From NCBI GenBank assembly GCA_964540995.1, contig CAZIOU010000001.1:6742-70741 (forward strand): a stretch of 64,000 nucleotides of DNA. Reading direction: 5' to 3'. A program made the position numbers and the translations under genes. Under the pieces are notes generated by a model, which saw only the letters and a list, made by a program, of their open reading frames with translations, did not search any database and had not been told where the DNA came from. Of the stretch, positions 43,833 through 64,000 are shown piece after piece (position 1 is the first letter of the stretch; each line of letters opens with the position of its first letter). Source of the stretch: an uncultured Gammaproteobacteria bacterium. Lineage in GTDB: Bacteria > Patescibacteriota > Patescibacteriia > UBA1558 > 2-01-FULL-52-15.

Positions 43833-43874
43833 CTAAGTGTGGTATAATTTCTGATGTTGAAAGGAGGTGACATT

Positions 43875-44291: not shown

Positions 44292-44294
44292 TCA

Positions 44295-44726: not shown

Positions 44727-44727
44727 T

Positions 44728-49907: not shown

Positions 49908-52900
49908 ATGTCTAATTTAGCTAAGAAGTTCTTCGTCGTCTCTTTGGTTTTTGCCACTGTGATGTTGAACGTAGCATCGGTACTCGTACCGTCTGCTCAC
50001 GCTTTGGCAGCTGGTGACTTGATCAAAGGTCCTAACTCCGATGCAGTTTACTACATCGGTGCGGACATGAAGAAATACGTTTTTCCTGATGGCAAAACAT
50101 ATTTCACTTGGTACAAGAATTTCAATGGTGTTAAGAAGGTAACCGTCAATGATTTGGATATGTATCCAAATGGCGGTGCCGTTACTTACCGTCCTGGAAC
50201 AAAATTGGTAAAGACTGTTGATTCCAACAAAGTCTATGCCGTTGAACCAGGTGGTACGCTTCGCTGGATCAAGGATGAAGCGACAGCTATTGCCCTTTGG
50301 GGTAGTAACTGGGCCAAGAATGTAAATGATGTAATCCCAGGTTATTTCTCAGCCACTTATAAGGTTGGTGCTGACCTCGGATCCATGTACCCAACTGGTC
50401 AATTGATCCAAAAGAATGGTGATTCTACTATCTACTTCGTAGATGGTTCCACTATTCGTCCGTTTGCCTCTGGTGACGCCTTCACTGTAAACGGTTTCGA
50501 CTATGCCTTCATCGTGAAGGTTGCCAATACCACTGGTTACACCACTGGTAGCTCGATCACCGGTCAAGAGAGTGCTTTGAGTTCAATCAACGCTTCCTCT
50601 TCTGTCCCAGCTGTTGCTGGTGCTTTGACCGTTTCATTGGCCGCTGATACGCCAGCTTCTGGTGTCGTAGTGTCCAATGTTTCTCGAGTTCCGTTCACTA
50701 AGGTCAATCTGACCACTGGTAACAACCCTGTTACCATCGATACGATCGTCGTCAAACGCGGTGGTATTGGTCAGGATGGTGCATTTGCTTCCGTCGACAT
50801 TTTAGACGGTAAGACCATGTTGCCATTTGATCCGAATTCCAAGAGTTTCAATTCCAATCACGAAGCTAATTTCACCAAGGATATTACCATCCCTGCTAAC
50901 ACTACTTGGCCAATTTACTTGGCTGGTAATATTGGTGCGGTTGGTAATACCTACGCAGGTGAATTCCCAGCTTTGGGTATTTCAGCTATTACATTGACAG
51001 CTGGTTCATCCTTGAGTGGCTCTTTGCCAATCATGGGTAACACACAGACCTTGAATGGTACGATTAACGTCGGAACGGTTGCCGTCTCTCGAGGTGCATA
51101 TGCAAATGCGACATCAACTCAAGAGGTGGGCAAGACCAACTATACCTTCTTTTCGTTTGCAGTCGCTGCTAATACAGAAGACATGAATATTACTAATGTC
51201 TCTGTATATCAAAGAGGCAATGCGACTCTTGGAACTGATTTGGTTAACGCCAAATTGTTGAAGGATGGTACTAAGATTGCTGATGGAACGTACTCTGACA
51301 AATATATCAACTTCACTTTGGCTACGCCATTGAAGATTGATAAGGGTCAGACGGCTCAGTTGCAGGTACAGGCTGATATAGCAGGCGGATCTACCCGCAC
51401 CGTTCAGTTAGCTTTTTATAGAGCTACTGATTTGGTATCAAAGGGTATGACTTATGGCTATAATGTAACACCAACCTTCTCGGGTACAGGTTACAAAGGT
51501 TCGGTAACGGCTACTCCGATATTCACCGCCGAGACCACTACAATCTCTAAAGGAAGTTTAGTTATTGAGAGAAGTAATACAGTTGGCTCTAACAACATCG
51601 GTATCGGTAATGATCAGGTATTAGGCGCGTTTAAGTTTACAGTAAAGGGCGAACCAATTGATGTTTCGGCTCTCACTGTATATATTGCATCTTCTACCTC
51701 AGCTATTACTGACGCTTCTGCTGCTTTACAGAATGTAAAGTTGATAGATTCTAACGGTGTAACTGTAGCCGGTCCTTCTGACTTTACTACTCACACTCTA
51801 AACATTGCTTTCACGGATACCTTTACGGCTCCGGTGGGAGAGAATGTTTACAAGATTGTTGCTAATGTAATGAGTAACGGTGGTTGGACTTCTAATGATA
51901 CGATTTGGGCTGGAATTAATACTCCGTCCAATAAGATCACAACACGCGGTCAGGTAACTGGTGAGTCAATCACAGCCACCCCCGGTAGCGACATCTCAAC
52001 TAACACCCAGACAATTAGAGGTGCTAAGTTGACTGTAACCCGCAACACCTTGCCGTCTACTGGCACTGTCGTGAAGGGCAGTCAAGATGTGCTCCTGGGT
52101 TCTTGGACCTTCGATGCTGCGTCTGCTGGTGAGGATATCCGCATCACTTCATTACTCTTCGCTGCTTCTTCCTCCAATGCAACTAACTTGACCGTCTATG
52201 ATGGCAAGTACGGTTCTGGCGGTGTAGCTAAGAGTCCTGTCAACGATGCTCCTTCTAGCGATGATGACAACGCTACTTCAACCTTTGCTTTTGACACACC
52301 TATCGTTATTACGAAGGGTACGACAAAGACAATTGAATTAGTTGGTGATATCAATACTGGTGCCAACACTGGTGACTCTGCTCAGTTTGGATTGACCGAT
52401 ACTGTTGCTGCTACTAACGCTTCAGTTGTTGCTTACGGTGTCCAGACAGGCAACCGCGCCAATATTACCTTAGTCGCTGATAACGGTGCTGTGCTCAGCT
52501 ATGCTGGTGCTGGTGCTGTAACTGTAAGTTCTTACAATAACCCAAGTAATGGATTGGTTCGCGCTGGCGCCACTGGTGTTACCTTTGGTTCCATCAAGTT
52601 TGACGCTTCATCTGCGGAAGATCTAGACTTGGATCAGTTGGTTATTGGTGTTGCTGATGGCGGTATCACTGGTACTGCTACTGGTAACTACCAGGATGTG
52701 ACTAAAGTTTACATCTATGATGGTTCTACCAAGTTAGGAGAAGCCACCATTCCGTCAACTGGTACCTATACTATTGACTTCAATAACGGTACTTTGACAG
52801 TTCCGAAGGGCGCTTCTAAAACCCTGACTATTAAGGTAGATGTAGGTACGATTGATACCTCTGCTGATGATAGCCCTGCTACACCAGCCGCAGATATCCT

Positions 52901-53681
52901 CTTCAAGTTAGACGGCGGCACTGCTGGCTTCAAGTTCACTGGTGTTTCCAGTAACGCGACAGCCACAGAAACCAACAATGGTTCCACTACTTCATCCATG
53001 GTCATACATAAGTCTCTTCCTTCTGTCACCTTCTCTCAGAGCGGTGCTACATTAGGAGCGGCTTCATCCTTGGCCAATGGCAGCAATGACCTGTACAAGT
53101 TTAAGGTTAGCGCTGATGCTGCTGGTGGCGATGTCTTGCTCTACCGAACGTCGTTTGAATTGACGACTGGAGGAGGCGCAGATACAACCCTAACCAATTG
53201 TTTCGTCAAGGATCAGAACGGATCGACTATCACTTCAGTTACCACCCCAACCTCACGCGGTGAAGCTGGTAACGGTAAGAATGTCGTATCTTTCGTCTTC
53301 GATAACCCATCTATCTCGGTAGGTGATACGAAAGAAGCTCTGTCAGTATCTCCTGGCGATTCAAAAACCTATACCTTGAATTGTACGGTTGCTAATGCCG
53401 GATCCGGTGACTTCGTCGCTGTATCTCTGCTTGGCGACACCGCTTCCAGTACTCCGGCTGCCTCTCATGGTACTCCGGCTGCTACTGGTCAGAACAAAGC
53501 TGATGCTTGGTCTGCATACCAACAAGGTAACTTCATCTGGTCAGATAACTTTAAGAACCTTGGACTCGCTACGAACGATGCTAATGCTACCGCCTATGGT
53601 CAGTGGTACAATGGTTACTTAGTCAGCGGTTTGGGACAGAATTCAACCACCACTGCTTACACAGTTGGTTGGTCATCCTAA
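49908..53681 (+). CDS. large secreted Thr/Ser/Gly/Ala-rich surface protein (S-layer/adhesin-like; candidate glycoprotein)
   Basis: RBS aaggagat; signal peptide MSNLAKKFFVVSLVFATVMLNVASVLVPSAHALAAG; 1257 aa of beta-rich Ig-like repeats; no TM anchor. Confidence 0.8.
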   Translation: MSNLAKKFFVVSLVFATVMLNVASVLVPSAHALAAGDLIKGPNSDAVYYIGADMKKYVFPDGKTYFTWYKNFNGVKKVTVNDLDMYPNGGAVTYRPGTKLVKTVDSNKVYAVEPGGTLRWIKDEATAIALWGSNWAKNVNDVIPGYFSATYKVGADLGSMYPTGQLIQKNGDSTIYFVDGSTIRPFASGDAFTVNGFDYAFIVKVANTTGYTTGSSITGQESALSSINASSSVPAVAGALTVSLAADTPASGVVVSNVSRVPFTKVNLTTGNNPVTIDTIVVKRGGIGQDGAFASVDILDGKTMLPFDPNSKSFNSNHEANFTKDITIPANTTWPIYLAGNIGAVGNTYAGEFPALGISAITLTAGSSLSGSLPIMGNTQTLNGTINVGTVAVSRGAYANATSTQEVGKTNYTFFSFAVAANTEDMNITNVSVYQRGNATLGTDLVNAKLLKDGTKIADGTYSDKYINFTLATPLKIDKGQTAQLQVQADIAGGSTRTVQLAFYRATDLVSKGMTYGYNVTPTFSGTGYKGSVTATPIFTAETTTISKGSLVIERSNTVGSNNIGIGNDQVLGAFKFTVKGEPIDVSALTVYIASSTSAITDASAALQNVKLIDSNGVTVAGPSDFTTHTLNIAFTDTFTAPVGENVYKIVANVMSNGGWTSNDTIWAGINTPSNKITTRGQVTGESITATPGSDISTNTQTIRGAKLTVTRNTLPSTGTVVKGSQDVLLGSWTFDAASAGEDIRITSLLFAASSSNATNLTVYDGKYGSGGVAKSPVNDAPSSDDDNATSTFAFDTPIVITKGTTKTIELVGDINTGANTGDSAQFGLTDTVAATNASVVAYGVQTGNRANITLVADNGAVLSYAGAGAVTVSSYNNPSNGLVRAGATGVTFGSIKFDASSAEDLDLDQLVIGVADGGITGTATGNYQDVTKVYIYDGSTKLGEATIPSTGTYTIDFNNGTLTVPKGASKTLTIKVDVGTIDTSADDSPATPAADILFKLDGGTAGFKFTGVSSNATATETNNGSTTSSMVIHKSLPSVTFSQSGATLGAASSLANGSNDLYKFKVSADAAGGDVLLYRTSFELTTGGGADTTLTNCFVKDQNGSTITSVTTPTSRGEAGNGKNVVSFVFDNPSISVGDTKEALSVSPGDSKTYTLNCTVANAGSGDFVAVSLLGDTASSTPAASHGTPAATGQNKADAWSAYQQGNFIWSDNFKNLGLATNDANATAYGQWYNGYLVSGLGQNSTTTAYTVGWSS

Positions 53682-53753
53682 TCTCTGATTCTCATTTCGG
53701 GTAATCCACCCGAAATAACAATAACTACCCTCGAGCGAAAGCTTGGGGGTAGC

Positions 53754-54470
53754 TTGTTTTTTGGCCAGAAATATACTATTCTTCAGGAACATATGATTAG
53801 AAATATAAAGAAACAATGGCTTATTATTGCCGTAACCGCGGTACTTGTGGTGGTCGCCGTTATGCTGTATACCAGCTCACGAATGTCACAACTTCTCAAT
53901 CGTCCATATGAACTCAAAGATTTTCCTCAGGTTCAAGGTACAGCAGAATATCAGATAGTCGTGGATGGGTTGAATAAGTCAAGAGAGAAGATACTGTCAA
54001 AACCAGAAGATCAAGTAGTACTCTATGATCTGTGGAATGATGTTGGCGTACGAAAGCTTGCGCTCAATGATTATTACGGCGCTGAAGCTGCCTGGAAGAA
54101 AGCCGAAAGTATCAATTCGAAGAATCCATTAGCTATCGCAAATCGGGCCAATCTGTATAAGGCTTTTTTACATCGTTTCTATGAATCTGAGAAATTATAT
54201 TTGCAAGCTATCGCTCTGAATAAGACAGCTGAACCATATTTTCCTGATTATGAAGGGTTAGCTGATCTGTACCAAAATTATTGGCAGGACAAGAAGTCCA
54301 AGGTTGAATCTCTGATGCTTTCAGCTATTGATAAAGCTTTTGATCCGCTTAATAAAGCGCGCTTTTATCTATTCTTGGCTAACTATATGAGATCTACTGA
54401 TCCCGCAAAGTTCGAAATGTATCGAGCTGAGACGATTAAATACGATCCATCATTATCAAGTCAATTTTAA
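53754..54470 (+). CDS. membrane-anchored TPR-like repeat protein
   Basis: N-terminal TM (WLIIAVTAVLVVVAVMLY), then helical repeats. Confidence 0.45.
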   Translation: MFFGQKYTILQEHMIRNIKKQWLIIAVTAVLVVVAVMLYTSSRMSQLLNRPYELKDFPQVQGTAEYQIVVDGLNKSREKILSKPEDQVVLYDLWNDVGVRKLALNDYYGAEAAWKKAESINSKNPLAIANRANLYKAFLHRFYESEKLYLQAIALNKTAEPYFPDYEGLADLYQNYWQDKKSKVESLMLSAIDKAFDPLNKARFYLFLANYMRSTDPAKFEMYRAETIKYDPSLSSQF

Positions 54471-54473
54471 ATT

Positions 54474-56771
54474 ATGAAATCTCTTCAATTGATCGGTCGT
54501 TCATTCGTTTGGACAGCAGTAGCGCTTATGCTTCTTGTTCCGATATATGTGAACAGTGACTTTTTCTTTCCGTTTATTTTTTCCAAGGCACTCGTCATCC
54601 GTATTGTTGTGGAGATTGGCTTGGCTGTATTATTGCTAAATGCTGCCTGGCTCATCAAAGATAAGATCAAGATTGATGTCGTGACAATTATTTTTGCCGT
54701 GTATTTATCTGTAATGTATGTGAGCTCCCTGCTGGGCGGAGATTTCTATCTTAGTTTCTGGAGCTATATCGAGCGTTCAGAGGGCTTACTATTGTGGACA
54801 CATCTTTTCTTATTGTATGTCATTATTCGTAATACAGTCACGTCGGAAAAGATGTGGATGATCATTTTTGATATTTTTTTTGCTGCAGCCCAAGTCGTGG
54901 CACTTGTGGGACTAGCTCAGTATCTTAACTGGGATTTCATCAATTCTCCTGGCATGGGAGAAGAACGTGTGGCATCTACCATTGGTAATGCTGCCTTTTT
55001 GGCTGGATACCTGCTATTTGCATTTTGGATCGGCATGTTCATGATCCTGAAACGATCGAAACGATGGTATGTCTACTATATCGCTGGCATGCTCGTGGAT
55101 ATATTCGTCATGTTTCAGACTGGTACACGCGGCGCCGTTCTTGGATTATTAGTAGGTATCGCCATCGCAGGCGTATATACGGTTGGTCGTTCATCAGTGA
55201 AAACAATTCGTCGTACAGGATTGATAGCGCTAACTATTATTATTGGATTTGTTGGGTTGGTATTTGCATTCAAAGATAGCTCAGTTGTGCAGTCAAATCT
55301 CGGTTTGCGTCGCTTAGCTAGCATTTCGGCTACCGATACCACAGCGCAAGCTCGTTTCCAGACTTGGGGTTCGGCTTGGCAGGGTTTCCAAGAGCGACCG
55401 CTATTAGGATATGGGCAAGAAAATTTCTATCTCGTATTTAATAAATATTTCAACCCATTGATTTATCGTCATGCGAATTCTCGTGTATGGTATGATCGTG
55501 CGCATAACATATTTATTGATCATTTGATTACGGGCGGTATCGTCGGTTTCATATTATATTCACTATTATTGGCGATTCCGCTGTGGTGGTTGGTACGCTA
55601 TCAGATACAAGAACGTCAGAAGCGGGGTGGTATTGATAAAGAACTATTACGTGAACAGATGATACTTATGGCACTTGTCGGGTTTATCGTACAAGGATTA
55701 TTTGTATTCGAGTCATTACCAGTGTATATTGGATTGTTATTATTGCTAGCGTATGTGAGCTGGCGCTATGGGCAAAAAACATGGCACATTCCGACTGTCA
55801 TTACACGTATAGCATCTATTGCTGTTATTATCGCCCTGATACCGGCTATGTATTTCTTCAATATTCGTGAAGCTCAAGCAAATCTGGCATCTATCGAGGG
55901 TATTACTGCTCAGTCGACAGATCCCGCTGCCGCCGTCGATGCTTATGATCGAGCAATTGAATATCAGTCATCGGGTACACAAGAATATCGTCGTCGATTG
56001 GCTGAATATGTAGCAGGGCTAGTTGCTAATCGATCATTATCTCCAGCGCAGTTAATCCCATTTGTGAGAAAAGTTGACACGGAATTGCAGCAGCGCGTTC
56101 AACAGAGTCCGCGTGATGTTTCGAATTATTTATTATACATGCGTTTCTTGAATACTACCTATGTTCTGGATCCGAATCGTTTATTATTAGTGCAAGCTCT
56201 TGCCGATAAAGCGCTGAATAATAGTCCAACACGTCCGCAGCTATACTATGAGTTAGGATATACTAACTTCTATCTTTATAAGTGGTATCTGCAAGAAGGA
56301 AAGATTGTAGAAGCGGCCGATGTTTATAAAAAAATGAAGATTAACTTTCAAAAATCGATTGATCTGAACCCCGGCGTAAAGGAGTCGTATGTAAATCTTG
56401 TAATGGTCCTTCTAGCCTCAAATAATAGTACTGAAGCTGATGAGTATTTGCATAGAATGGACGACCTTAAGATTACTTACACTGATAATGACACGATAAA
56501 TCGTGTTGTGAATGCTGCTATAGAGCAGAAGAATTACCTTTGGCTTAAGGATTTCTACCTGTTACTAAAGGCTCGATATCCTGAAGACCCAAACTACTAT
56601 ATTGGAGCGGCATTATCATATGCCAATCTTAGAGATTTTTCGAATGCTATTAAATACGCTACAGAAGCTAAACATTTTGGGGGTAATGTTGCAAAACAAT
56701 CAGAAATATTTATCAGTTGCGTCAATAATAAGACATATACATTTGAGCCTTCGTTTGCCTGTAAGCCATAA
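54474..56771 (+). CDS. O-antigen ligase (Wzy_C/WaaL)-like membrane protein with a C-terminal TPR-like domain; candidate O-oligosaccharyltransferase
   Basis: FQTGTRGAVLGLLVG and HNIFIDHLITGGIVGF match WaaL/PglL Wzy_C motifs (GSRGA..; H-N-x-x-L-x-x-x-x-E/G-G). Confidence 0.7.
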   Translation: MKSLQLIGRSFVWTAVALMLLVPIYVNSDFFFPFIFSKALVIRIVVEIGLAVLLLNAAWLIKDKIKIDVVTIIFAVYLSVMYVSSLLGGDFYLSFWSYIERSEGLLLWTHLFLLYVIIRNTVTSEKMWMIIFDIFFAAAQVVALVGLAQYLNWDFINSPGMGEERVASTIGNAAFLAGYLLFAFWIGMFMILKRSKRWYVYYIAGMLVDIFVMFQTGTRGAVLGLLVGIAIAGVYTVGRSSVKTIRRTGLIALTIIIGFVGLVFAFKDSSVVQSNLGLRRLASISATDTTAQARFQTWGSAWQGFQERPLLGYGQENFYLVFNKYFNPLIYRHANSRVWYDRAHNIFIDHLITGGIVGFILYSLLLAIPLWWLVRYQIQERQKRGGIDKELLREQMILMALVGFIVQGLFVFESLPVYIGLLLLLAYVSWRYGQKTWHIPTVITRIASIAVIIALIPAMYFFNIREAQANLASIEGITAQSTDPAAAVDAYDRAIEYQSSGTQEYRRRLAEYVAGLVANRSLSPAQLIPFVRKVDTELQQRVQQSPRDVSNYLLYMRFLNTTYVLDPNRLLLVQALADKALNNSPTRPQLYYELGYTNFYLYKWYLQEGKIVEAADVYKKMKINFQKSIDLNPGVKESYVNLVMVLLASNNSTEADEYLHRMDDLKITYTDNDTINRVVNAAIEQKNYLWLKDFYLLLKARYPEDPNYYIGAALSYANLRDFSNAIKYATEAKHFGGNVAKQSEIFISCVNNKTYTFEPSFACKP

Positions 56772-56779
56772 CGAATTGT

Positions 56780-58480
56780 ATGCCGGCATGGTTTCGAGCT
56801 CAACGATCAAGTTTGATAATATTCGGCATTGTAGCTATTGCGTCTCTCCTGCGGTTCTATGATTTAGGTCGGGCCGATCTGATTACTGATGAAGCCTCGA
56901 TAAATTGGCGGGCGATCGGCTACTTAGATTTCCTCGGAACTCCCTATCAGACCACGCCAGTCGAATGGCTCCAGACGTGGCCTTGGTGGTTGTCTATTTC
57001 CTTCCATGATCTGCCGCCCTTATTTTTCTTGATCCAACATTGGATATTCTCTCTTTTTGGAGTATCAGTCACAGTCATGCGTCTATTGCCAGCACTGGCC
57101 GGTGTAGCTTCGGTAATTATGGTGCATGTCATCGGTCGCCGCTTGGTAGGACGGGCCTCTGGCTTGGTGGCCTCAGCCCTGATAGCTATCAATAGTTATC
57201 ACCTGTGGATATCTAGGATCGCGATGCAGGAGTCGTTGGTTATCTTGTGGATCTTGTTGGCGTTCTGGTGCGCTCTGCGAGTAAGAGAGGATAAACGTTG
57301 GTGGTATGCCTTTGGTGTGATTACTGGACTGGCCATCATGACCAAGATACACGGTATCATCATTATCCCTATCGTCTTGACCTATTATCTGTGGCAGCAG
57401 CGATCAGTCTGGCGGACCAAAGAGCTGTATCTATCATGGTTAATTATTGCCATCATTGTAAGTCCCTACATTGTCTATAACATCATGATGTATCGGACGT
57501 TTGGACATTTTGATTATCAGTTTTCTTATCTCTTTCATCAGTCAGTCGATGCCTGGAAAGTTCGACCGGGGAGAGAAGAGTTTTCCACTTTAGCAGCCTC
57601 ATTTCAGTATTTTTTCGTCAATCTACGAGAATCCTTTACCCCACTATTTTCAGTTGTTCTCTTGCTAGCTGTGGTATATCCTCTGCTCCGCTGGCGCGAC
57701 TTGAGTGATCAGCGACGTCAGGCTATTGGCTGGCTAGGAGTAGCGATGCTATGGACCTTTGTGCTGTTGATGGTTATTGGTTCGAGTCGTCGGTTTCTGA
57801 CCTTGATGTTGCCGTGGGTCTTCTTGTGGCTCGGTGTGGTGTTGAGTTCTATTCGTTTTCGACGATTCCGTTGGCTATTTTACAGTCTGGGAGTTGTTTG
57901 GGTGGTTTACGAGCTTGTATTTGCTATCAATACCAGTGTGGCCGATCTGAAATGGGGCTCTGAAGGGTGGGGCTATTCTTGTCTACGTTATCAAGTGATG
58001 CCCTATGGCTACCGTCAGCTGGAAGCGTCTGTTGATAATATCTTAGCTGGCAAGAAGCCGGCAGTTACCTTGCCAATCGCTAATGCTAATTTGCGTCACG
58101 TGACTGAGCAAAGATATGCCAGTTTAACTGGGCAACCCGAGCCGGCAATGATCATTTATGATCCACGAATGTACGGCGAAGAAGTATTCTGGACTTTGAC
58201 ACGACGCCTCATCTATCAAGGTTGGCCAGTATTGTCCTATGGAGTCTATCAAGAAGCGCAGGCGGGGAATGGACCAGACTTTTTCCGTAAGTTGGGAATC
58301 ACTGACTACTATTTTATCGATGCACATCAAGCAACGTTGCAGTCACCGTCATTTGACGAGTCTGTCGCTGCGGCTGATGCCTTTATCCAACAACTACAGT
58401 CCAAAGCAGAAGTTGTTCAGGAGATTAAGGACACCAGCGGCCGAGTAGTATTTACTATCTATCATTGGCAAACACTATGA
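56780..58480 (+). CDS. GT-C glycosyltransferase of the GT39/GT83 PMT_2 family (ArnT / protein-O-mannosyltransferase-like)
   Basis: DE motif in the first extracytoplasmic loop (LITDEASINW); 12-13 TM helices; C-terminal soluble domain. Confidence 0.75.
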   Translation: MPAWFRAQRSSLIIFGIVAIASLLRFYDLGRADLITDEASINWRAIGYLDFLGTPYQTTPVEWLQTWPWWLSISFHDLPPLFFLIQHWIFSLFGVSVTVMRLLPALAGVASVIMVHVIGRRLVGRASGLVASALIAINSYHLWISRIAMQESLVILWILLAFWCALRVREDKRWWYAFGVITGLAIMTKIHGIIIIPIVLTYYLWQQRSVWRTKELYLSWLIIAIIVSPYIVYNIMMYRTFGHFDYQFSYLFHQSVDAWKVRPGREEFSTLAASFQYFFVNLRESFTPLFSVVLLLAVVYPLLRWRDLSDQRRQAIGWLGVAMLWTFVLLMVIGSSRRFLTLMLPWVFLWLGVVLSSIRFRRFRWLFYSLGVVWVVYELVFAINTSVADLKWGSEGWGYSCLRYQVMPYGYRQLEASVDNILAGKKPAVTLPIANANLRHVTEQRYASLTGQPEPAMIIYDPRMYGEEVFWTLTRRLIYQGWPVLSYGVYQEAQAGNGPDFFRKLGITDYYFIDAHQATLQSPSFDESVAAADAFIQQLQSKAEVVQEIKDTSGRVVFTIYHWQTL

Positions 58481-60906
58481 AGCAGCTTGATTGGATGCGT
58501 TCGGTATTGGCAGAGCGACCTGACTGGTATGAGTCGGTGTTGCTGACGTGCTTTCGTGTTTGTGTTGGGTTGAGCTTATTGGTGCCGCTAATTTATTCAA
58601 CACAATTGATGTATGGAGTATCAACGGCGAAGCACTTTTTCTTTCGCACGATTGTCTCCTTGATGGCGTTATTCTACGCGCTCTTGGCGAGTCACAATCG
58701 CAAATACCTGCCACGACCGTCGCTGATAACCTTTAGTCTCTTAGGCATATTTCTAGCCTATACCATCTCGAGCGTTGTGGCTGGTACAGCTATCAGCAGC
58801 TTCTGGGGTAACTATCTGCGGATGGACGGACTCCTCGGGTGGGGCTATCTCTTGGTCTATTATCTGACATTGACTCATGTCTTGGTTGATAATGATTGGT
58901 GGCGGTTATTGGTAGTGGTTATTACTGTTGGCTATTGGGTTTCGCTGGTAGCTGTCAGTCAGTATCTGGGAGCTTCTATAATCTTGGTGTCGACTGGTGG
59001 CGTGCGATCAACGGCCACCTTTGGGAATGCGGCTTATTATGGCTGGTACCAAATGATAGTGGTCTTCTTATTGCTCTTACTCTGGGTGCAGAAGCAACGT
59101 AAATTGTATTCTGCTTACGTGTATAGCTTCCTGCTAGCCGATATTATAATCGTATCCTATGTGGCGTGGTCGCATTTTGTTCGTCATCAGCCCAATGATT
59201 TTGACTATCTATTCCGCAATATATTTCTTTTATCTGTAACGATTTGGATTCAATGGCTGGCCTGGCGCTATTGGCGGAGCCGCAGAGAGATTTATCGATC
59301 GGCGTTATTAGTGTCATTAATCATCGTTGGTTGTTTTGGTATGTATGCCAGCCAAAGCAAGGCGGCGCTGGTGGCAACGACCGTTGGCTTGGTTACTGCG
59401 GGCGTAGTGACGTTGGTCGGTCGTAGGCAGCTGACTCGACGTAGCTATGGCTGGCTCGGTCTGGTTATCCTAGCCATGGTAGTAGTACTAGCTTCGAGTG
59501 CGAGTAGGCCAGTATCGTCTGTGATGTCCTCGGTAGTACAGTCCAAATCTTTCCACGATCGAGCGCTGGTCTGGGGTGCTGCTACACAAGCATTCCTAGC
59601 CAAGCCATTGCTCGGGTGGGGTATGGACAATTTCCCGGTCGCTTTTGATCGTTATTACCCGAGCGATCTCTACGATTCTGCTAATGCTCCGATCTGGTAT
59701 GACAAAGCGCATAGCATTTATGGTCAATATGCTGTCGAGGGTGGAGTGTTGGTAGTACTGGGATATCTGGTGCTGCTATACGCGTTGGTACGAGCGGTCC
59801 GTCGATGGACCACAGGATCTCGGGCTATAAAATATGTCTTAATAGGATTTGGCCTAGCCTATCTCTGTATCGGGTTGGTCTACTTTGATACTGTTGCCAA
59901 TGCACCGCTGCTATTCTTGCTACTAGCCATGATTCGTCAGCAAGCGCGACCCGATCGAGTTGTAGCCCTGCAGTCACCCTTAGAACTCCTGATACCGCGA
60001 GCCGCCACCGGTGTGCTGATAGTCTTGGGCTCGCTGCTCTTCTGGTACAATTTCACCGCTCGTCAGCTCATTACTAATGCCAATTATATGAAGCAAGTGG
60101 CCTCAGTTCAGGCTGCTATTCAGACAGACTCTCCCGTCGCCTTGGATTTGCTCCATGCGGTCGTTACCAACTCACCTACAATGGGGAAGACAGACCTACG
60201 TTCGCAATTTGGCACTATTATGGGTGATCTGATGGTCGCCAAGCCTGATGATCCAGAAGTTCGTCGTTATGTGCCGATCGGGCTGACTGATTTGCAGAAG
60301 AATTCTGGTAAGCGTACCAATCTGGTTCTACCTGTGGTAGAGATTGCCAATTATACGATTATCGCTGGCCGATTGGACCCGCAGTACTGGTCTTACGGTC
60401 AAGAGGTGGTAGATCGTCTGCTCGTAGCTGCTCCGTCTCGTATTCAGCTCTATTATTTGGCTGGCAGACTGCATATCCTCCGAGGTCAAACAGCTGAAGG
60501 TTTGGCTTACTTTCAGCGAGCGATTGATCAGAAACCAATGTTTGATACCTATTTTAATTATTATAAGCAAATGGTGACCTTGGTGCCGGAGCAGGAGAGC
60601 GAAGTTTTCTTACATGATCATTTGCAAGCATATTCGCTTGGTGAGCGTTTTCAAATTATTAACTTTGATCTATCGCTCAATCAGCCTCAGCGAGCTCTAA
60701 CGCATTTGATGGCTATGGCTAGCGATGTCAATCAGGATCGTACCAATCAGACGCAGCAAGTTGCCCATTGGCAACGATTGGCGGCGATCGCTTACTCGCA
60801 ACTAGGTGATAATGAAAAAGCTCTGACGGCTGCCCGTCAAAGCTACATGCTTGATCCTATTACTAATGCTGATCTGCCTCACTATTTTCCGCAGCTAACT
60901 CAATAA
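58465..60906 (+). CDS. second O-antigen ligase (Wzy_C/WaaL)-like membrane protein with a C-terminal TPR-like domain
   Basis: ASQSKAALVATTVGLV and HSIYGQYAVEGGVLVV motifs; paralog of 54474-56771. Confidence 0.7.
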   Translation: MANTMKQLDWMRSVLAERPDWYESVLLTCFRVCVGLSLLVPLIYSTQLMYGVSTAKHFFFRTIVSLMALFYALLASHNRKYLPRPSLITFSLLGIFLAYTISSVVAGTAISSFWGNYLRMDGLLGWGYLLVYYLTLTHVLVDNDWWRLLVVVITVGYWVSLVAVSQYLGASIILVSTGGVRSTATFGNAAYYGWYQMIVVFLLLLLWVQKQRKLYSAYVYSFLLADIIIVSYVAWSHFVRHQPNDFDYLFRNIFLLSVTIWIQWLAWRYWRSRREIYRSALLVSLIIVGCFGMYASQSKAALVATTVGLVTAGVVTLVGRRQLTRRSYGWLGLVILAMVVVLASSASRPVSSVMSSVVQSKSFHDRALVWGAATQAFLAKPLLGWGMDNFPVAFDRYYPSDLYDSANAPIWYDKAHSIYGQYAVEGGVLVVLGYLVLLYALVRAVRRWTTGSRAIKYVLIGFGLAYLCIGLVYFDTVANAPLLFLLLAMIRQQARPDRVVALQSPLELLIPRAATGVLIVLGSLLFWYNFTARQLITNANYMKQVASVQAAIQTDSPVALDLLHAVVTNSPTMGKTDLRSQFGTIMGDLMVAKPDDPEVRRYVPIGLTDLQKNSGKRTNLVLPVVEIANYTIIAGRLDPQYWSYGQEVVDRLLVAAPSRIQLYYLAGRLHILRGQTAEGLAYFQRAIDQKPMFDTYFNYYKQMVTLVPEQESEVFLHDHLQAYSLGERFQIINFDLSLNQPQRALTHLMAMASDVNQDRTNQTQQVAHWQRLAAIAYSQLGDNEKALTAARQSYMLDPITNADLPHYFPQLTQ

Positions 60907-62106
60907 TTCTTCATAGACCTGACTGGTTTTGTCTATCATATGCTCGGCCGAGAACTCGCTACGAACGAATCGTTCGAGTGCAGCAGCACACTGACTGCGT
61001 TGGTCGCTGCCCGTCAGAGCTTGGCGGATCGTGTCGGCTAAAGCCTGACTATGAGCTGGTGGCACGAGCCAACCGGTTACTCCGTCTTCGATAATTTCGG
61101 GGATACCACCGACGCGAGTGGCGATGACTGGTAATGTGGCTAGTCCAGCCTCTAAGAGAGCGTAGGGATGACCTTCTTTGACCGAAGGCAGGACGAAGAG
61201 GTCAAAAGCTTTCAAATATTTCCACGCTTGCGGTTTCTCACCGAGGAGATGAAAACGTTCGGTCATCTTATGACTGTCGATTAAGAATTGCAAGCGAGCC
61301 TTCTGCGGGCCGTCACCGATTATAGCGAATTGCAGTTGTTGATCATCAATTTTGGTTGCGGCTTCGATTAGGTAGGTCAAACCTTTGGTAGGATAGTGGG
61401 AGGCGATGGAACCGACGATCGTAGCTTCTGGTGACAATCCGAGTTCTTGTCGGGCTTGTTCACGCGTCAGAAATATACTTGTGTCAGGCGTTAGACCATT
61501 ATGAATAGTAGTAAATGATTCCAATGGCGCGATACGATGCTTGATACCACTTACTTTGGATTGATCAGACACCGTGATGATGCGATCTTTCCAGCGTGCG
61601 CCGAGTCGTTCGACCCAGATATAGAGTTGTCTGACTAGTGCTGGCAATGGTTCATCGAAGACAAAGCCATGCGCTGTGTAGACGACGGCTATTTTCTTGG
61701 CGGCTGTTCGATTGTACCAATGAGCAGCCAGACTAGCGGTAAAACCAGCCATAGAGCTATTGATATGAATAATTTCTGGCTGGAGCTGACGGTAGAGGCG
61801 CTGTAACTCCCAGATGCTCTGCAGATTGCGGATAGGATTAATGCCTCGCTGCAAGTAGGTTAAGCGGTGCACAGTGATTTCGGGATGAAGGTCTAAGGGC
61901 TGGAAAAATTTGGGATCTTGGTCATTTAACTCTCCGACAGCGACACTGACCGAATTATGAGCAGCAAAAGCCGTCGCCAATTCCAAGACATACTTCTGAG
62001 CACCGCCAAACTTACTTTGGGTGATAATATAGAGAATTTTGTGACCGCTAATCATAGGCATATTCGTTGTATACTGTACCAAATAGGCTAGGCTTTGTAT
62101 AGACAA
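60895..62106 (-). CDS. GT4 family glycosyltransferase (GT-B)
   Basis: EGHPYALLEAGLATLPVIATRVGGIPEII (E-x7-E region). Confidence 0.85.
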   Translation of the reverse strand: MSIQSLAYLVQYTTNMPMISGHKILYIITQSKFGGAQKYVLELATAFAAHNSVSVAVGELNDQDPKFFQPLDLHPEITVHRLTYLQRGINPIRNLQSIWELQRLYRQLQPEIIHINSSMAGFTASLAAHWYNRTAAKKIAVVYTAHGFVFDEPLPALVRQLYIWVERLGARWKDRIITVSDQSKVSGIKHRIAPLESFTTIHNGLTPDTSIFLTREQARQELGLSPEATIVGSIASHYPTKGLTYLIEAATKIDDQQLQFAIIGDGPQKARLQFLIDSHKMTERFHLLGEKPQAWKYLKAFDLFVLPSVKEGHPYALLEAGLATLPVIATRVGGIPEIIEDGVTGWLVPPAHSQALADTIRQALTGSDQRSQCAAALERFVRSEFSAEHMIDKTSQVYEELLS

Positions 62107-62186
62107 AAGGGCTTGAAAAATGCTAGGAAATCTGGCATAGTCATACGGTATATTGGATAGCTTCTAAGCTCACTATTTGGCTAACT

Positions 62187-63335
62187 ATGGCGAAAAGACT
62201 GCTAATATTTTCTCTTACTTACTACCCTTTTGTCGGAGGAGCAGAGGTAGCGATCAAAGAAATTGTTGATCGTTTAACGGATTTTGATGCTGTTTTATTG
62301 ACGGCACGACTTCAAGCTGACCTGCCAGCAGAAGAAACTTTGGGACGTATTCAAGTGATTCGTCTCGGTCGGGGTAACCGTTGGGATAAATACTTCTTTG
62401 CCTTCCGCGCTGCTAGACGCGCTTACCAGCTGCACTCATTTCAGCGATTTGATCTCGCCTGGGCCATGATGGCCAATTATGCCGGCTTAGCTGCTTGGCT
62501 TTTTCGTTTACGATCACGTGTCCCGTATCTCTTAACTGAACAGAGCGGTGATTCAGCTTGGTTTATCTGGAAGCGAGTTTGGTTCTGGTTACCGATTTAT
62601 CGCTCGATGTATAAGAAAGCGGTGCGTATTCAAGCCATCAGTAAGAGCTTAGCTCGTCGGGCGCGTTTCTTCGGTCATAAGAAAGAAATAGCCATCATTC
62701 CTAACGGCGTTGATTTGGAAGTTTTTCACAATACGGTAAGTCCTGACCAACGACAAGCTTACCGCCATGAATTGGGTATTAGTGATGATGAATGGGTAGT
62801 GATCACTACCAGCCGATTGGTTTTTAAAAATGCCATCGATGATCTACTCAAAGCGATTAACGACGCTCGTTATAAGCTGGGAGTGCCTGCTCGGTTGCTG
62901 ATTGTCGGTGAAGGACCGGATCGGCGAGCCTTAGAATCTCTCGCAATTCAGAAGGGTGTGGCACAATACGTGTCTTTCTATGGTCACATTGATCATTTGG
63001 ATATGACCAAATATATGGCAGCCTCTGATGTCTTCTGCCGTCCGTCTTTGACTGAAGGATTGGGTAATTCATTTCTGGAAGCCATGGCTTACGGCTTACC
63101 AATTATCGCAACACCGGTTGGTGGTATTGTTGATTTCTTGACCGACGGTGAGACTGGTCTTTCTTGTCAGGTTCGTAAGCCGATGACTATCGCTCAAGCT
63201 ATCGAACGCTATTATCGCGATCGGGAATTGTATCGACATATCCAGTCTCGTGGTCAGGAGTTGATTCGTGAACGCTATGATTGGAATAAAGTGGCAGCCG
63301 AGATGAATAGTCTATTCATTAGTTGTATTCGGTAA
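62187..63335 (+). CDS. GT4 family glycosyltransferase (GT-B)
   Basis: EGLGNSFLEAMAYGLPIIATPVGGIVDFLTDGETG. Confidence 0.85.
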   Translation: MAKRLLIFSLTYYPFVGGAEVAIKEIVDRLTDFDAVLLTARLQADLPAEETLGRIQVIRLGRGNRWDKYFFAFRAARRAYQLHSFQRFDLAWAMMANYAGLAAWLFRLRSRVPYLLTEQSGDSAWFIWKRVWFWLPIYRSMYKKAVRIQAISKSLARRARFFGHKKEIAIIPNGVDLEVFHNTVSPDQRQAYRHELGISDDEWVVITTSRLVFKNAIDDLLKAINDARYKLGVPARLLIVGEGPDRRALESLAIQKGVAQYVSFYGHIDHLDMTKYMAASDVFCRPSLTEGLGNSFLEAMAYGLPIIATPVGGIVDFLTDGETGLSCQVRKPMTIAQAIERYYRDRELYRHIQSRGQELIRERYDWNKVAAEMNSLFISCIR

Positions 63336-63336
63336 T

Positions 63337-64000
63337 ATGAAATCAGCTTCAGATCTACGTATTCTCATGATTAGCCTCGACCCGGCTTTTTTGGGACAAG
63401 GCAGTGGAGATGTGTTGCAACGACACATCGATTATGCTGCCAGAGTTAAATCCTTGGATATAATCCTCATCGGAGGTAATCAGGCTGTTTCCAAGAAGAT
63501 AACCGACCAGCTCACTATTCATAGTACTGGAGGGCAGGGGTTATTTAAGGCCTTCAAAGCCTATGCCATCGGTCAGCGACTAGCTGCTCAAGGTATTGAT
63601 CTGATCGATACCCAAGATCCTCATATGACGGGACTTATCGGTTGGTTATTGAAACGCAAGTTTGGTCTGCCTTTGGAAGTTCACTGTCATGGTGACTTTA
63701 TTGCTAATCCCTACTGGCGGGCAGAATCTTGGAAAAATCGCTGGTATGAGCTGTTGCAAAATTTTATTTTTAAGCGTGCCGATGGTATTCGTGTGGTGTC
63801 ATCTTTGATCGCCGCCAAGATTGAACAAGCTCAATTGACCAAGGCTCCGGTGGTGACGATCAATACCCCGGTTAATATAGAAACATTCATACCAATACAG
63901 GGTCAACCAGAGGATAATCCCAAACGAATTGCATTTGTTGGGCGGTTGGTAGCAGCAAAGAATCTCTATTTATTGCTTCATGTTATTAGGGTGCTGCAAC
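63337..64000 (+). CDS. GT4 family glycosyltransferase, 3'-truncated by window edge
   Basis: ATG 1 nt after the previous stop. N-terminal Glyco_trans_4-like domain (MKSASDLRILMISLDPAFLGQG...; FVGRLVAAKNL start of the GT1 domain). Confidence 0.65.
   Translation, partial: MKSASDLRILMISLDPAFLGQGSGDVLQRHIDYAARVKSLDIILIGGNQAVSKKITDQLTIHSTGGQGLFKAFKAYAIGQRLAAQGIDLIDTQDPHMTGLIGWLLKRKFGLPLEVHCHGDFIANPYWRAESWKNRWYELLQNFIFKRADGIRVVSSLIAAKIEQAQLTKAPVVTINTPVNIETFIPIQGQPEDNPKRIAFVGRLVAAKNLYLLLHVIRVLQ

What the first reader, a model, noticed from the sequence alone, without database searches (positions are those of the whole stretch)
49908..64000. Candidate surface-protein O-glycosylation locus: giant Thr/Ser-rich secreted protein, two WaaL/PglL-like ligases, PMT/ArnT-like GT-C enzyme and three GT4 transferases
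A 1257-aa signal-peptide protein very rich in Thr/Ser/Gly/Ala (S-layer/adhesin-like) is followed co-directionally by a TPR membrane protein and two paralogous Wzy_C (O-antigen-ligase/PglL-type) proteins, each fused to a C-terminal TPR-like domain. These flank a GT39/GT83 PMT_2-family enzyme with the DE motif. Then come three GT4 glycosyltransferases. WaaL/PglL-like enzymes transfer lipid-linked glycans en bloc to proteins, and PMT-family enzymes O-mannosylate Ser/Thr (established knowledge). The arrangement suggests the large protein is a heavily O-glycosylated surface layer. Having both routes, plus TPR fusions on the ligases, is unusual.
Basis: partly seen in the sequence, partly recalled or inferred. 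Interest (0 to 1): 0.7.

Follow-up and report, generated by a model that had tools for sequence, protein, structure and literature searches.

The report
CPR surface protein with glycosylation genes
An uncultured ultra-small (CPR/Patescibacteria) bacterium keeps the gene for a very large, uncharacterised, S-layer-like surface protein next to membrane enzymes of the kinds that attach sugars outside the cell, and this arrangement recurs across many CPR lineages, so it gives a testable candidate for how these bacteria build and sugar-coat their surface.

Summary
The window holds a 1257-aa secreted, Ser/Thr-rich, all-beta protein, a membrane-anchored TPR protein, two Wzy_C (WaaL/PglL-type) enzymes with C-terminal TPR domains flanking a PMT_2 GT-C enzyme, and three GT4 genes. 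One GT4 is on the minus strand and one is cut by the window end.

The new result is synteny. Of 29 non-redundant related loci with at least 9 kb downstream, all 29 have the TPR protein and a Wzy_C-TPR and/or PMT_2 enzyme after the big gene (14 Wzy_C only, 8 PMT_2 only, 7 both). 27 have GT4 genes. The loci span several Patescibacteria lineages.

The closest precedent is the S-layer glycosylation (slg) cluster of Geobacillus and Paenibacillus, which also has a Wzy_C transferase with a fused or adjacent TPR protein. The TPR fusion is therefore normal, not unusual.

Glycosylation of the big protein is plausible but unproven. No initiating phosphoglycosyl transferase was found and no flippase recognised, and an envelope glycopolymer or lipoglycan is a real rival.

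A 360-700 nt, highly structured, unannotated RNA leader lies upstream of the big gene (z -7 to -12, compensatory base pairs). An ECF sigma/DUF5667 pair lies upstream and an intrinsic terminator follows the gene.

Verdict: new variant of a known kind, moderately high interest.

The parts
47428..47991 (+). ECF-type sigma factor, in the conserved upstream neighbourhood
   Evidence: Pfam Sigma70_r2, Sigma70_r4_2 and Sigma70_ECF. An orthologue lies within 3 kb upstream of the big gene in 24 of 33 loci with enough upstream sequence.
47966..49228 (+). DUF5667 membrane protein, a candidate anti-sigma partner (inferred)
   Evidence: Pfam DUF5667 1e-8. It has a short N-terminal segment, one hydrophobic helix, then a long soluble part. 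It overlaps the sigma gene and is present upstream in 23 of 33 loci.
49229..49907 (+). Long, highly structured RNA leader of the big gene. The core is 49741-49889: a closing helix CGUUCUA (49741-49747) with UAGAACG (49883-49889), abutting the Shine-Dalgarno AAGGAG (49891-49896). It contains the invariant AAGGUCG (49804-49810), which is followed by a variable hairpin.
   Evidence: MFE -260.5 kcal/mol, z -8.3 for the whole region. The upstream 517 nt give z -9.56 and the core gives z -3.75. Conserved blocks are seen in 10 loci. RNAalifold finds 24 of 52 and 21 of 43 pairs with compensatory changes in two clades. 83.8% of cells are paired against 36-47% when partners are slid, and 0 of 500 shuffles reach this. 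No Rfam match.
49908..53681 (+). 1257-aa secreted surface protein: signal peptide, a portable N-terminal module (aa 35-215), about six Ig/cohesin-like beta-sandwich domains, and a conserved Trp-containing C-terminal tail
53725..53762 (+). Intrinsic terminator after the big gene
   Evidence: 12-bp stem with a GAAA loop and a T-run. A GC-rich hairpin plus T-run (at most -13 kcal/mol) lies 18-70 nt after the stop in 17 of the 25 loci scripted; the window itself scored poorly in that script, and its terminator rests.
53793..54470 (+). Membrane-anchored TPR protein. The ORF runs from TTG 53754 but the likely start is ATG 53793. The N-terminus is inside, there is one transmembrane helix, and the TPR part is outside (inferred).
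   Evidence: One transmembrane helix at aa 23-41 of the long form. The family profile matches TPR structures and the Wzy TPR domain. An orthologue lies within 5 kb downstream of the big gene in 42 of 46 loci, and in all 29 loci with at least 9 kb downstream.
54474..56771 (+). Wzy_C (WaaL/PglL-type) membrane enzyme with 13 transmembrane helices and a C-terminal TPR domain (aa ~484-751)
   Evidence: Pfam Wzy_C at 71 bits. AF2 pLDDT 93, pTM 0.90. The best PDB fold match is WaaL 7tpg (TM-score 0.64 normalised to the target) and the tail matches TPR superhelices. R219, R294 and H344 align to R191, R265 and H313 of 7tpg_B. R165, R294, W298, D341 and H344 are invariant in 48 homologues.
56780..58480 (+). 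PMT_2-family GT-C glycosyltransferase with a 183-aa C-terminal tail
   Evidence: Pfam PMT_2 1.9e-21 and PMT 8.4e-13. In 21 orthologues D33, D37, R44, D50, Q57, T58, P60, W63 and LSFHD (73-77) are at least 95% conserved, and residue 38 is E or D in most. There is no sequence-level PDB relative.
58465..60906 (+). Second Wzy_C-TPR paralogue. The likely start is ATG 58477, overlapping the PMT_2 stop codon.
   Evidence: Pfam Wzy_C 1.9e-15 plus TPR_9, TPR_2 and TPR_8. It is 23% identical to the first paralogue over the full length and keeps the WYDKAH motif. The same Wzy-PMT-Wzy order is seen in L013.
60895..62106 (-). GT4 glycosyltransferase on the minus strand, divergent from the next gene
   Evidence: Pfam Glycos_transf_1 2e-36 and Glyco_transf_4. 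An orthologue is present in the same minus orientation in nearly all loci.
62187..63335 (+). GT4 glycosyltransferase
   Evidence: Pfam Glycos_transf_1 1.5e-36. All NCBIfam hits are below cut-off and include glycolipid synthases.
63337..64000 (+). Third GT4 glycosyltransferase; only the N-terminal 221 aa lie in the window
   Evidence: Pfam Glyco_trans_4_4 1.2e-12 and Glyco_transf_4.

Best explanation
The locus is a conserved cell-envelope module of Parcubacteria-type CPR bacteria. It encodes the major surface (S-layer-like) protein together with the machinery that glycosylates it outside the membrane.

Proposed mechanism, with each step's basis marked:
1. The big gene is its own transcription unit. 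It has a long structured leader, a strong Shine-Dalgarno sequence and its own terminator (shown by sequence and folding). It may be controlled by the adjacent ECF sigma/DUF5667 pair (inferred).
2. The protein is exported by Sec through its signal peptide. It is held at the envelope by its portable N-terminal module (inferred).
3. On the outer face of the membrane, the anchored TPR protein and the extracytoplasmic TPR domains of the Wzy_C enzymes bind the substrate (inferred from topology and from TPR precedents).
4. The Wzy_C enzymes transfer an undecaprenyl-pyrophosphate-linked glycan en bloc to Ser/Thr. They use the Arg/Arg/His set shared with WaaL (residues shown by alignment; acceptor inferred).
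5. The PMT_2 enzyme adds single sugars from a polyprenyl-phosphate-sugar donor through its loop-1 Asp (motif shown; chemistry inferred).
6. The cytoplasmic GT4 enzymes build the lipid-linked glycan (inferred, and the weakest step).
For: - Synteny. Among 54 non-redundant loci, all 29 with at least 9 kb downstream have the TPR protein and a Wzy_C-TPR and/or PMT_2 enzyme, and 27 have GT4 genes. The big protein in these loci has diverged to 29-73% identity.
- Tight co-directional packing in the window. Gaps between the TPR, Wzy, PMT and Wzy genes are 3 nt, 8 nt and an overlap.
- The big protein looks like a structural surface protein. It is secreted and has 22.5% S+T. It consists of tandem Ig/cohesin-like domains. 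Each genome MAG in the scan gave one locus. Length is stable at 1111-1307 aa across the 116 long homologues listed.
- Wzy765 has the WaaL fold and aligns R219, R294 and H344 to R191, R265 and H313 of 7tpg_B. The family profile also hits a PDB 'Oligosaccharyltransferase', 9rmk, at 1e-7.
- Counting helices and applying the positive-inside rule puts a 13th transmembrane helix before the TPR domain, so the TPR lies outside the cell.
- Published precedent: S-layer glycosylation clusters have a Wzy_C O-oligosaccharyltransferase with a TPR motif (WsfB), or a small TPR protein (WsaA) just upstream of it (WsaB), next to the S-layer gene (PMC2943079).
- A small GT2 gene sits beside PMT_2 in L032 and L055 and within about 1.5 kb of it in L024 and L033, as expected for a lipid-phosphate-sugar donor pathway.
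- A distant Wzy_C-TPR relative sits next to a Bac_transf initiating transferase.
Against: - There is no direct evidence that the big protein is glycosylated.
- No initiating phosphoglycosyl transferase was found in the window or within about 10 kb in the 39 loci held at that search. The 28 metagenome loci were searched with the same query and none of their listed ORFs has it as best match. No flippase or ABC exporter was recognised in the genes scanned against Pfam.
- The GT4s resemble glycolipid and exopolysaccharide enzymes as much as protein-glycan enzymes, and all those hits are below cut-off.
- In relatives, the genes downstream of the GT4s are SAM methyltransferases and B12 radical-SAM enzymes.
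- Wzy_C proteins also include polymerases and ligases for non-protein acceptors. PMT_2 includes ArnT-like lipid glycosyltransferases.
- Distant Wzy_C-TPR homologues occur away from any big protein.
- A terminator separates the big gene from the enzymes.
Confidence: 0.5

Rival explanations
1. The enzymes build an envelope glycopolymer or lipoglycan (secondary cell-wall-polymer-like or lipomannan-like), not a protein-linked glycan. GT4s would make a glycolipid or lipid-linked primer in the cytoplasm. PMT_2 and Wzy_C enzymes would extend, polymerise or ligate it outside. The big protein would sit next to these genes because it binds or is anchored by that polymer, as S-layer genes sit next to their wall-polymer genes in Firmicutes (my own knowledge).
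For: - No Bac_transf-type initiating transferase was found in the loci searched, and no flippase was recognised in the genes scanned.
- The GT4s hit glycolipid-anchor and diacylglycerol glycosyltransferase models as well as others, all below cut-off.
- A GT4 plus GT-C combination is the logic of mycobacterial PIM/LM/LAM synthesis (my own knowledge).
- A terminator isolates the big gene.
- The N-terminal module is shared with unrelated secreted proteins, as an anchoring domain for a common envelope ligand would be.
- UDP-glucose dehydrogenase and epimerase genes occur in many loci.
Against: - TPR domains, fused or as a separate protein, are protein-binding modules. In the described cases they accompany protein O-oligosaccharyltransferases.
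- No LCP-type ligase was seen among the genes scanned.
- Wzy_C and PMT_2 replace one another between loci while the big protein and the TPR protein stay constant. This fits a shared protein acceptor better than one defined polymer.
Confidence: 0.3
2. The enzymes form a general, broad-spectrum protein O-glycosylation system, like PglL in Neisseria or PMT in Actinobacteria. The big protein would be only one of many substrates, or simply a neighbour.
For: - Wzy_C-TPR proteins are very common in CPR (943 hits). More distant ones lie in unrelated contexts.
- PglL-type and PMT-type enzymes are typically promiscuous (my own knowledge).
Against: The orthologous subfamily is adjacent to the big gene in every locus long enough to judge. 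A general system has no need for this.
Confidence: 0.12
3. The big protein is a host-attachment adhesin rather than an S-layer. This concerns the protein's role and is compatible with any of the glycan models.
For: - Tandem Ig/cohesin-like arrays are typical of adhesins: PrgB, the CLIPPER domain, Bap-like hits.
- CPR bacteria are thought to be episymbionts (PMC6744442).
Against: - Length and domain number are nearly constant across the homologues listed, and each MAG in the scan gave one locus. Adhesins usually vary in repeat number.
- The leader, strong Shine-Dalgarno sequence and own terminator suit a very abundant structural protein.
Confidence: 0.25

Closest known systems
S-layer glycosylation (slg) gene clusters of Geobacillus stearothermophilus NRS 2004/3a (sgsE, wsaA-F, wsaP, wzm/wzt) and Paenibacillus alvei CCM 2051T (spaA, wsfB and others)
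   Same: - A surface-layer structural gene lies next to glycan genes.
- The transferase carries a Wzy_C domain.
- A TPR element is either fused (WsfB) or encoded as a small separate protein just upstream (WsaA/WsaB). Here both forms occur together.
- Several cytoplasmic glycosyltransferases are present (PMC2943079).
   Different: - The host is a CPR bacterium.
- The structural protein has no SLH or other known anchoring domain and belongs to an unannotated family.
- No WsaP-type initiating enzyme was found, and no Wzx or Wzm/Wzt exporter was recognised, in the window.
- A PMT_2 GT-C enzyme is part of the module and can fully replace the Wzy_C enzyme in some lineages.
- There are two Wzy_C paralogues in this window.
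WaaL O-antigen ligase and PglL/PilO-type O-oligosaccharyltransferases (Pfam Wzy_C)
   Same: - Wzy_C domain above the Pfam cut-off.
- WaaL-like fold (7tpg).
- Arg/Arg/His residues aligned to positions 191, 265 and 313 of 7tpg_B.
   Different: - An extra 13th transmembrane helix and a roughly 270-aa extracytoplasmic TPR superhelix.
- CPR bacteria are not expected to make LPS (my own knowledge), so the acceptor is unlikely to be lipid A-core.
- Only 17% identity to 7tpg in the structural alignment.
PMT / ArnT / TMTC-type GT-C glycosyltransferases (GT39/GT83, Pfam PMT_2)
   Same: - PMT_2 and PMT hits.
- A conserved acidic D-E (or D-D) motif in the first outside loop.
- A small GT2 gene beside it in some loci, as for lipid-phosphate-sugar donors.
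- TMTC enzymes combine this fold with TPR repeats to pick protein substrates (my own knowledge). Here the TPR is supplied by a separate protein.
   Different: - No MIR domain as in eukaryotic PMTs.
- No solved relative detectable by sequence.
- The acceptor is unknown.
Long 5' untranslated leaders of S-layer genes in Firmicutes and other bacteria
   Same: A long, stably folded leader precedes a gene for an abundant surface protein (my own knowledge of slpA-type leaders).
   Different: - It is much larger (360-700 nt) and far more structured (z -7 to -12).
- It has an invariant AAGGUCG junction motif and compensatory pairs across clades.
- There is no Rfam family.

Membership tests
Wzy_C / O-antigen ligase-like family (PF04932) | Significant match to the Wzy_C profile above the curated cut-off | tested here: met
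   71.1 and 57.4 bits against a cut-off of 31.7.
Wzy_C / O-antigen ligase-like family (PF04932) | WaaL-like polytopic fold with a large outside loop between late transmembrane helices | tested here: met
   AF2 pLDDT 93. The top PDB match is WaaL 7tpg, E 2.7e-6, TM-score 0.64 normalised to the target.
Wzy_C / O-antigen ligase-like family (PF04932) | Conserved Arg/Arg/His set of the pyrophosphate-binding and catalytic site | tested here: met
   R219, R294 and H344 align to R191, R265 and H313 of 7tpg_B. R294 and H344 are invariant and R219 nearly so. That these WaaL residues are the essential ones is from my memory of the WaaL structure paper and was not re-read here.
Protein O-oligosaccharyltransferase (PglL/PilO/WsaB/WsfB type) | Transfers a lipid-linked glycan to Ser/Thr/Tyr of a protein rather than to lipid or polysaccharide | not testable with these tools
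   Sequence does not separate ligases, polymerases and O-oligosaccharyltransferases. The only indirect support is adjacency to a candidate substrate and the TPR domain.
PMT_2 GT-C glycosyltransferases (GT39/GT83) | PMT_2 profile match and an acidic motif in the first extracytoplasmic loop | tested here: met
   PMT_2 at 77.4 bits against a cut-off of 26.1. D37 is at least 95% conserved among 21 orthologues, followed by E or D in most.
PMT_2 GT-C glycosyltransferases (GT39/GT83) | A partner GT2 that makes the polyprenyl-phosphate-sugar donor | tested here: inconclusive
   None was found in the window. A small GT2 lies beside PMT_2 in L032 and L055, within about 1.5 kb of it in L024 and L033, and about 3.9 kb away in L026.
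S-layer glycosylation (slg) gene cluster | Structural surface-protein gene next to a Wzy_C transferase with a TPR element and glycosyltransferases | tested here: met
   the definition is taken from PMC2943079.
S-layer glycosylation (slg) gene cluster | Initiating phosphoglycosyl transferase (WsaP-like) and an exporter (Wzx or Wzm/Wzt) in the cluster | tested here: not met
   No Bac_transf homologue was found in the window or in the 39 loci held at the time (L001-L035 plus the short window fragments L036-L037). The 28 metagenome loci were searched with the same query and none of their listed ORFs has it as best match. No exporter was recognised in the window genes scanned against Pfam. The exporter test is weak: there was no flippase query sequence and the window ends inside the cluster.
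S-layer protein | Forms a two-dimensional lattice and is among the most abundant cell proteins | not testable with these tools
   The only support is consistency: secretion, beta-sandwich array, stable length, a Foldseek hit to the Nitrosopumilus S-layer among many generic Ig hits, and expression signals.
S-layer protein | A known anchoring domain (SLH, CWB2 or similar) | tested here: not met
   No Pfam or NCBIfam domain. Instead there is a portable N-terminal module shared with CPR cupredoxin proteins.
Rfam RNA families | Leader matches a curated covariance model | tested here: not met
   Nothing at gathering score. Only a chance-level miRNA hit (E 8.8) at the permissive threshold.

The most novel reading that the evidence does not exclude
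This module would identify the long-sought S-layer protein of Parcubacteria-type CPR bacteria together with a dedicated glycosylation apparatus. In that apparatus two mechanistically different outside-the-membrane transferases, en-bloc Wzy_C-TPR and single-sugar PMT_2, would be evolutionarily interchangeable around a constant TPR adaptor. Expression of the surface protein would be governed by a new class of large structured RNA leader, riboswitch-like or protein-binding and carrying the invariant AAGGUCG, working with a dedicated ECF sigma/anti-sigma pair.
Probability: 0.3. Interest if true: 0.8.

Novelty: new variant of a known kind. Interest (0 to 1): 0.6.

Why it matters
- CPR/Patescibacteria are a large part of bacterial diversity, are almost all uncultured, and are thought to live attached to other cells. 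Their surface is therefore central to their biology.
- Ten literature searches of the held library found no description of this protein family, of DUF5667, or of Wzy_C/PMT_2 function in CPR.
- A surface protein with its own glyco-enzymes, conserved across lineages, gives concrete targets for glycoproteomics, cryo-ET fitting and heterologous reconstitution.
- The swap between Wzy_C and PMT_2 enzymes around a constant TPR partner is a natural experiment on how substrate recognition is separated from glycan-transfer chemistry.
- The large structured leader is a candidate new cis-regulatory RNA.

Tried and rejected
- Scanning genome contigs with an 18-sequence alignment failed because no stretch was conserved enough. 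A 7-sequence alignment worked.
- Attempts to read beyond the window end failed. The GT4 and PMT proteins are on record only on short Logan contigs. Neither start of the second Wzy_C gene is on record.
- The AFDB50 fold library was unavailable.
- Single-sequence PDB searches of the big protein, Wzy765 and PMT566 gave nothing useful. Only profiles reached WaaL.
- MAFFT-based RNAalifold on mixed clades of the leader collapsed to 3 pairs because of misalignment. Clade-wise alignments worked.
- The covariance model built from 5 sequences was too narrow. It scored the window leader only at E 0.056 in a 1.2 kb search.
- I considered AAGGTCG as an ECF promoter -10 element. I rejected that as the sole explanation because the motif lies inside long-range helices that have compensatory changes.
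- My first impression that the leader is more conserved than the coding sequence holds only against the closest relative: 89% for the leader against 75% for the big gene. In the two more distant loci the leader is 55-57% identical against 64-67% for the big gene, with conserved islands.
- The ORFs upstream at 43854-45486 are membrane proteins, not pilins.
- Searches for DUF5667 and for CPR S-layer or O-glycosylation papers found nothing relevant.

Full report
**What is in the sequence**

- The big ORF is 49908-53681 (+), 1257 aa. It starts with a hydrophobic signal sequence with AHA|L at residues 30-33 (read by eye). S+T is 22.5% and G+A 21.3%, against 11.8% and 16.0% in 21 other window proteins. 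It has no Pfam or NCBIfam domain.
- Five co-directional genes follow:
  - a 238-aa single-pass membrane protein;
  - a 765-aa Wzy_C protein;
  - a 566-aa PMT_2/PMT protein;
  - an 813-aa Wzy_C protein;
  - after a divergent GT4 gene on the minus strand, two further GT4 genes, the last cut by the window end.
- Corrections to the finding:
  - The first GT4 is on the minus strand.
  - The small protein probably starts at ATG 53793.
  - The second Wzy_C gene probably starts at ATG 58477, overlapping the PMT_2 stop codon.

**The organism**

The big protein has 432 homologues. The 116 long ones among the 120 listed are 1111-1307 aa. Those with source names are all Patescibacteria (Komeili-, Falkow-, Buchanan- and Doudnabacteria) and all are annotated 'hypothetical'. 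The rest of the window has glycolysis genes, MraW, a PBP, a Mur ligase, UppS and BacA. This is consistent with a CPR bacterium that makes peptidoglycan.

**The big protein**

- AlphaFold2 on residues 58-1257, using 92 homologues, gave mean pLDDT 88.8 and an almost all-beta chain.
- Self-comparison shows an internal repeat of about 155-165 aa, giving about six domains.
- The N-terminal module (aa 35-215) also occurs fused to small cupredoxin proteins of other CPR bacteria. A shared envelope-targeting or anchoring domain would behave this way (inference).
- The nearly constant length fits a structural surface protein better than a variable adhesin, as does finding one locus per MAG in the genome scan (inference).

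**The enzymes**

- Wzy765 was modelled with pLDDT 93 and pTM 0.90. It has thirteen long helices and then a helical repeat domain at 484-751.
  - Its best PDB match is the WaaL ligase 7tpg (E 2.7e-6, TM-score 0.64 normalised to WaaL). The tail matches TPR superhelices such as the OGT TPR.
  - A profile of the membrane domain finds only WaaL in the PDB (1.9e-10). It aligns R219, R294 and H344 with R191, R265 and H313 of 7tpg_B. R294 and H344 are invariant in 48 homologues. My recollection is that these are the residues shown to be essential in WaaL; I could not re-read that paper here.
  - The full-length profile also hits a PDB chain named 'Oligosaccharyltransferase', 9rmk, at 1e-7.
  - Counting helices with the positive-inside rule puts the 13th helix, and hence the TPR domain, outside the cell (inference).
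- The second Wzy_C protein is a full-length paralogue at 23% identity and keeps the WYD(R/K)AH motif.
- The small protein is a genuine TPR protein at family level. Its 17-member profile matches the OGT TPR at 1e-28 and the Wzy C-terminal domain at 97.9% hhalign probability.
- PMT566 has at least 95%-conserved D33, D37, R44, D50, Q57, T58, P60, W63 and LSFHD in its first outside loop region across 21 orthologues. It has no solved relative detectable by sequence.

**Synteny: the main new evidence**

I fetched 31 loci from species-representative genomes, 28 from metagenomes and several by exact protein look-up. I scored their ORFs against the window proteins with phmmer. After removing duplicates, 54 loci remain.

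| Feature | Count |
|---|---|
| Loci with at least 9 kb downstream of the big gene | 29 |
| ...with the TPR protein within 5 kb | 29 |
| ...with a Wzy_C-TPR and/or PMT_2 enzyme within 10 kb | 29 |
| ......Wzy_C only / PMT_2 only / both | 14 / 8 / 7 |
| ...with GT4 genes | 27 |
| Loci with at least 3 kb upstream of the big gene | 33 |
| ...with the ECF sigma factor upstream | 24 |
| ...with DUF5667 upstream | 23 |

Buchananbacteria-type loci have two PMT_2 genes flanking the TPR gene and no Wzy_C gene. The constant core is therefore the big protein, the TPR protein, at least one outside-acting membrane transferase and the GT4 pair. The big protein in these loci has diverged to 29-73% identity, so this adjacency is selected rather than inherited by chance.

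**Comparison with what is known**

- The S-layer glycome review (PMC2943079) describes the same logic in Gram-positive bacteria. The predicted O-oligosaccharyltransferases WsaB and WsfB carry Wzy_C. WsfB and PglL have a C-terminal TPR motif. WsaB lacks one, but a 168-aa TPR protein, WsaA, is encoded just upstream, in a cluster next to the S-layer gene.
- The TPR fusion is therefore not unusual. It is also the standard architecture of this enzyme in CPR, with at least 943 homologues.
- Differences from those clusters:
  - The host is different.
  - The structural protein has no known anchoring domain.
  - A PMT_2 enzyme is part of the module and can substitute for Wzy_C.
  - The initiating transferase and exporter seen in slg clusters are missing.

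**Weak points of the glycoprotein reading**

- A Bac_transf query found no homologue in the window or in the 39 loci held at the time. The 28 metagenome loci were searched with the same query and none of their listed ORFs has it as best match.
- No flippase was recognised in the genes I scanned.
- In the closest relatives with longer contigs, the genes after the GT4 pair are a SAM methyltransferase and B12-binding radical-SAM enzymes. Other clades have UDP-glucose dehydrogenase and an epimerase.
- The GT4s score, below cut-off, against glycolipid synthases as well as polysaccharide and protein-glycan enzymes.
- A GT4 plus GT-C combination also describes lipoglycan synthesis.
- More distant Wzy_C-TPR proteins sit in unrelated contexts. 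One lies beside a Bac_transf gene, which does support an undecaprenyl-PP-linked donor for this enzyme type.
- A small GT2 gene lies beside PMT_2 in L032 and L055 and near it in L024 and L033, as expected for a lipid-phosphate-sugar donor.

I put the glycoprotein model at about 0.5 and the envelope-polymer model at about 0.3.

- A 12-bp GC-rich hairpin with a T-run follows the big gene at 53725-53762. Comparable terminators follow it in 17 of 25 loci.
- Upstream, the 679-nt gap between DUF5667 and the big gene is not ordinary spacer.
  - It is 89% identical to the closest relative, against 75% for the big gene. In more distant loci it keeps conserved islands.
  - It folds far better than dinucleotide shuffles, as the table below shows.
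- In the window, a closing helix CGUUCUA/UAGAACG (49741-49747 with 49883-49889) ends two bases before the Shine-Dalgarno AAGGAG. An invariant AAGGUCG (49804-49810) is followed in every clade by a hairpin of different sequence.
- RNAalifold on two clades gives 52 pairs with 24 compensatory, and 43 pairs with 21 compensatory.
- On a model-based alignment, 83.8% of cells pair against 36-47% when partners are slid. 27 pairs show double changes against 11-14, and 0 of 500 shuffles reach this. This alignment was fitted to the model, so it leans towards the structure.
- AAGGTCG is found upstream of the big gene in 26 distinct loci (27 counting the window). 24 of them show the ECF sigma and/or DUF5667 genes upstream; the other two are cut too close to the big gene to tell. 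It is absent from the nine Doudnabacteria-type loci that lack those genes. It was also not found in a few loci that do have them, such as L016, L026, L046 and L060.
- Rfam has no match.
- I regard this as a real, undescribed structured leader of unknown function.

| Region folded | z-score |
|---|---|
| Window, whole intergenic region | -8.3 |
| Window, upstream 517 nt | -9.56 |
| Ten Komeilibacteria-type loci (including the window) | -6.8 to -12.3 |
| Seven Buchananbacteria-type loci | -3.4 to -4.6 |
| Three Doudnabacteria control regions | -1.1 to -2.8 |

**Verdict**

Two of its 'unusual' claims are wrong, and glycosylation of the protein remains an inference.
- The system is best filed as a new variant of the S-layer-glycosylation kind, in a phylum where nothing of the sort has been described in the literature I could search.
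- It has two features worth following up: the Wzy_C/PMT_2 interchange around a constant TPR adaptor, and the large structured RNA leader.

Noticed in passing
window 49229-49907 (core 49741-49889); also L005-L013, L001, L022-L035, L040, L043-L051 upstream of the big gene: A large structured RNA leader (360-700 nt in the Komeilibacteria-type clade, z -7 to -12). It has an invariant AAGGUCG junction motif, a GCGCGCG loop inside a CCCUAA/UUAGGG helix, and many compensatory pairs. No Rfam family matches it. It mostly co-occurs with the ECF sigma/DUF5667 genes.
   Followed up: partly
window 32296-41123: A low-GC island (0.37-0.41 against about 0.46). It holds a SMODS+AGS_C (CBASS-like) gene, an AIPR abortive-infection gene, a large serine recombinase (37329-38987), a DUF4238 protein and tRNA-Glu (41049-41123). 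This looks like an integrated defence island next to a tRNA gene.
   Followed up: no
window 4-2991: A 995-aa RHS-repeat protein, running in from the window start, lies at the left edge followed by small ORFs. It may be a polymorphic toxin locus.
   Followed up: no
window 7472-9031 and 9033-10616: Two tandem paralogues of cofactor-independent phosphoglycerate mutase (iPGM_N plus Metalloenzyme) lie within a PGK-enolase glycolysis cluster.
   Followed up: no
window 50010-50552 (big protein aa 35-215): The N-terminal module of three short repeats is a portable domain. It is also fused to roughly 265-aa cupredoxin/plastocyanin-like secreted proteins in Uhrbacteria and other CPR. It is a candidate new envelope-anchoring domain.
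   Followed up: partly
L003/L004 19156-19506; L011 17057-17626: Mobile or diversity elements are inserted inside the module in relatives. A bAvd gene (accessory protein of diversity-generating retroelements) lies between Wzy_C and GT4 in a Doudnabacterium. An IS200-like transposase lies at the same position in a Komeilibacterium.
   Followed up: no
L008 17621-20502; L009 19991-23326; L011 20042-23466; L040, L048, L060: B12-binding radical-SAM enzymes and a SAM methyltransferase are interleaved with the GT4 genes downstream of the module. This suggests a methylated sugar or lipid product.
   Followed up: partly
L032 19456-20148; L055 10629-11336; L033 6514-7239; L024 16888-17643: A small GT2 gene lies beside PMT_2 in L032 and L055 and within about 1.5 kb of it in L033 and L024. 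This is the classical pairing of a lipid-phosphate-sugar synthase with a GT-C enzyme. No such GT2 gene is in the window.
   Followed up: partly
L005, L006, L010, L013, L016 (record titles): Several public MAG records that carry this typical CPR locus are titled 'uncultured Gammaproteobacteria bacterium', L017 is titled 'Saccharibacteria', and L029 'archaeon'. These are probably taxonomic mislabels in the source records.
   Followed up: no
window 45486-46562 and orthologues: A PDZ-domain protein is conserved a few kb upstream of the ECF sigma gene in many loci. In relatives it also carries a Trypsin_2 domain, making it HtrA-like. In L001 it is preceded by type IV pilus-like genes (T2SSE ATPase, N_methyl pilin).
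   Followed up: no
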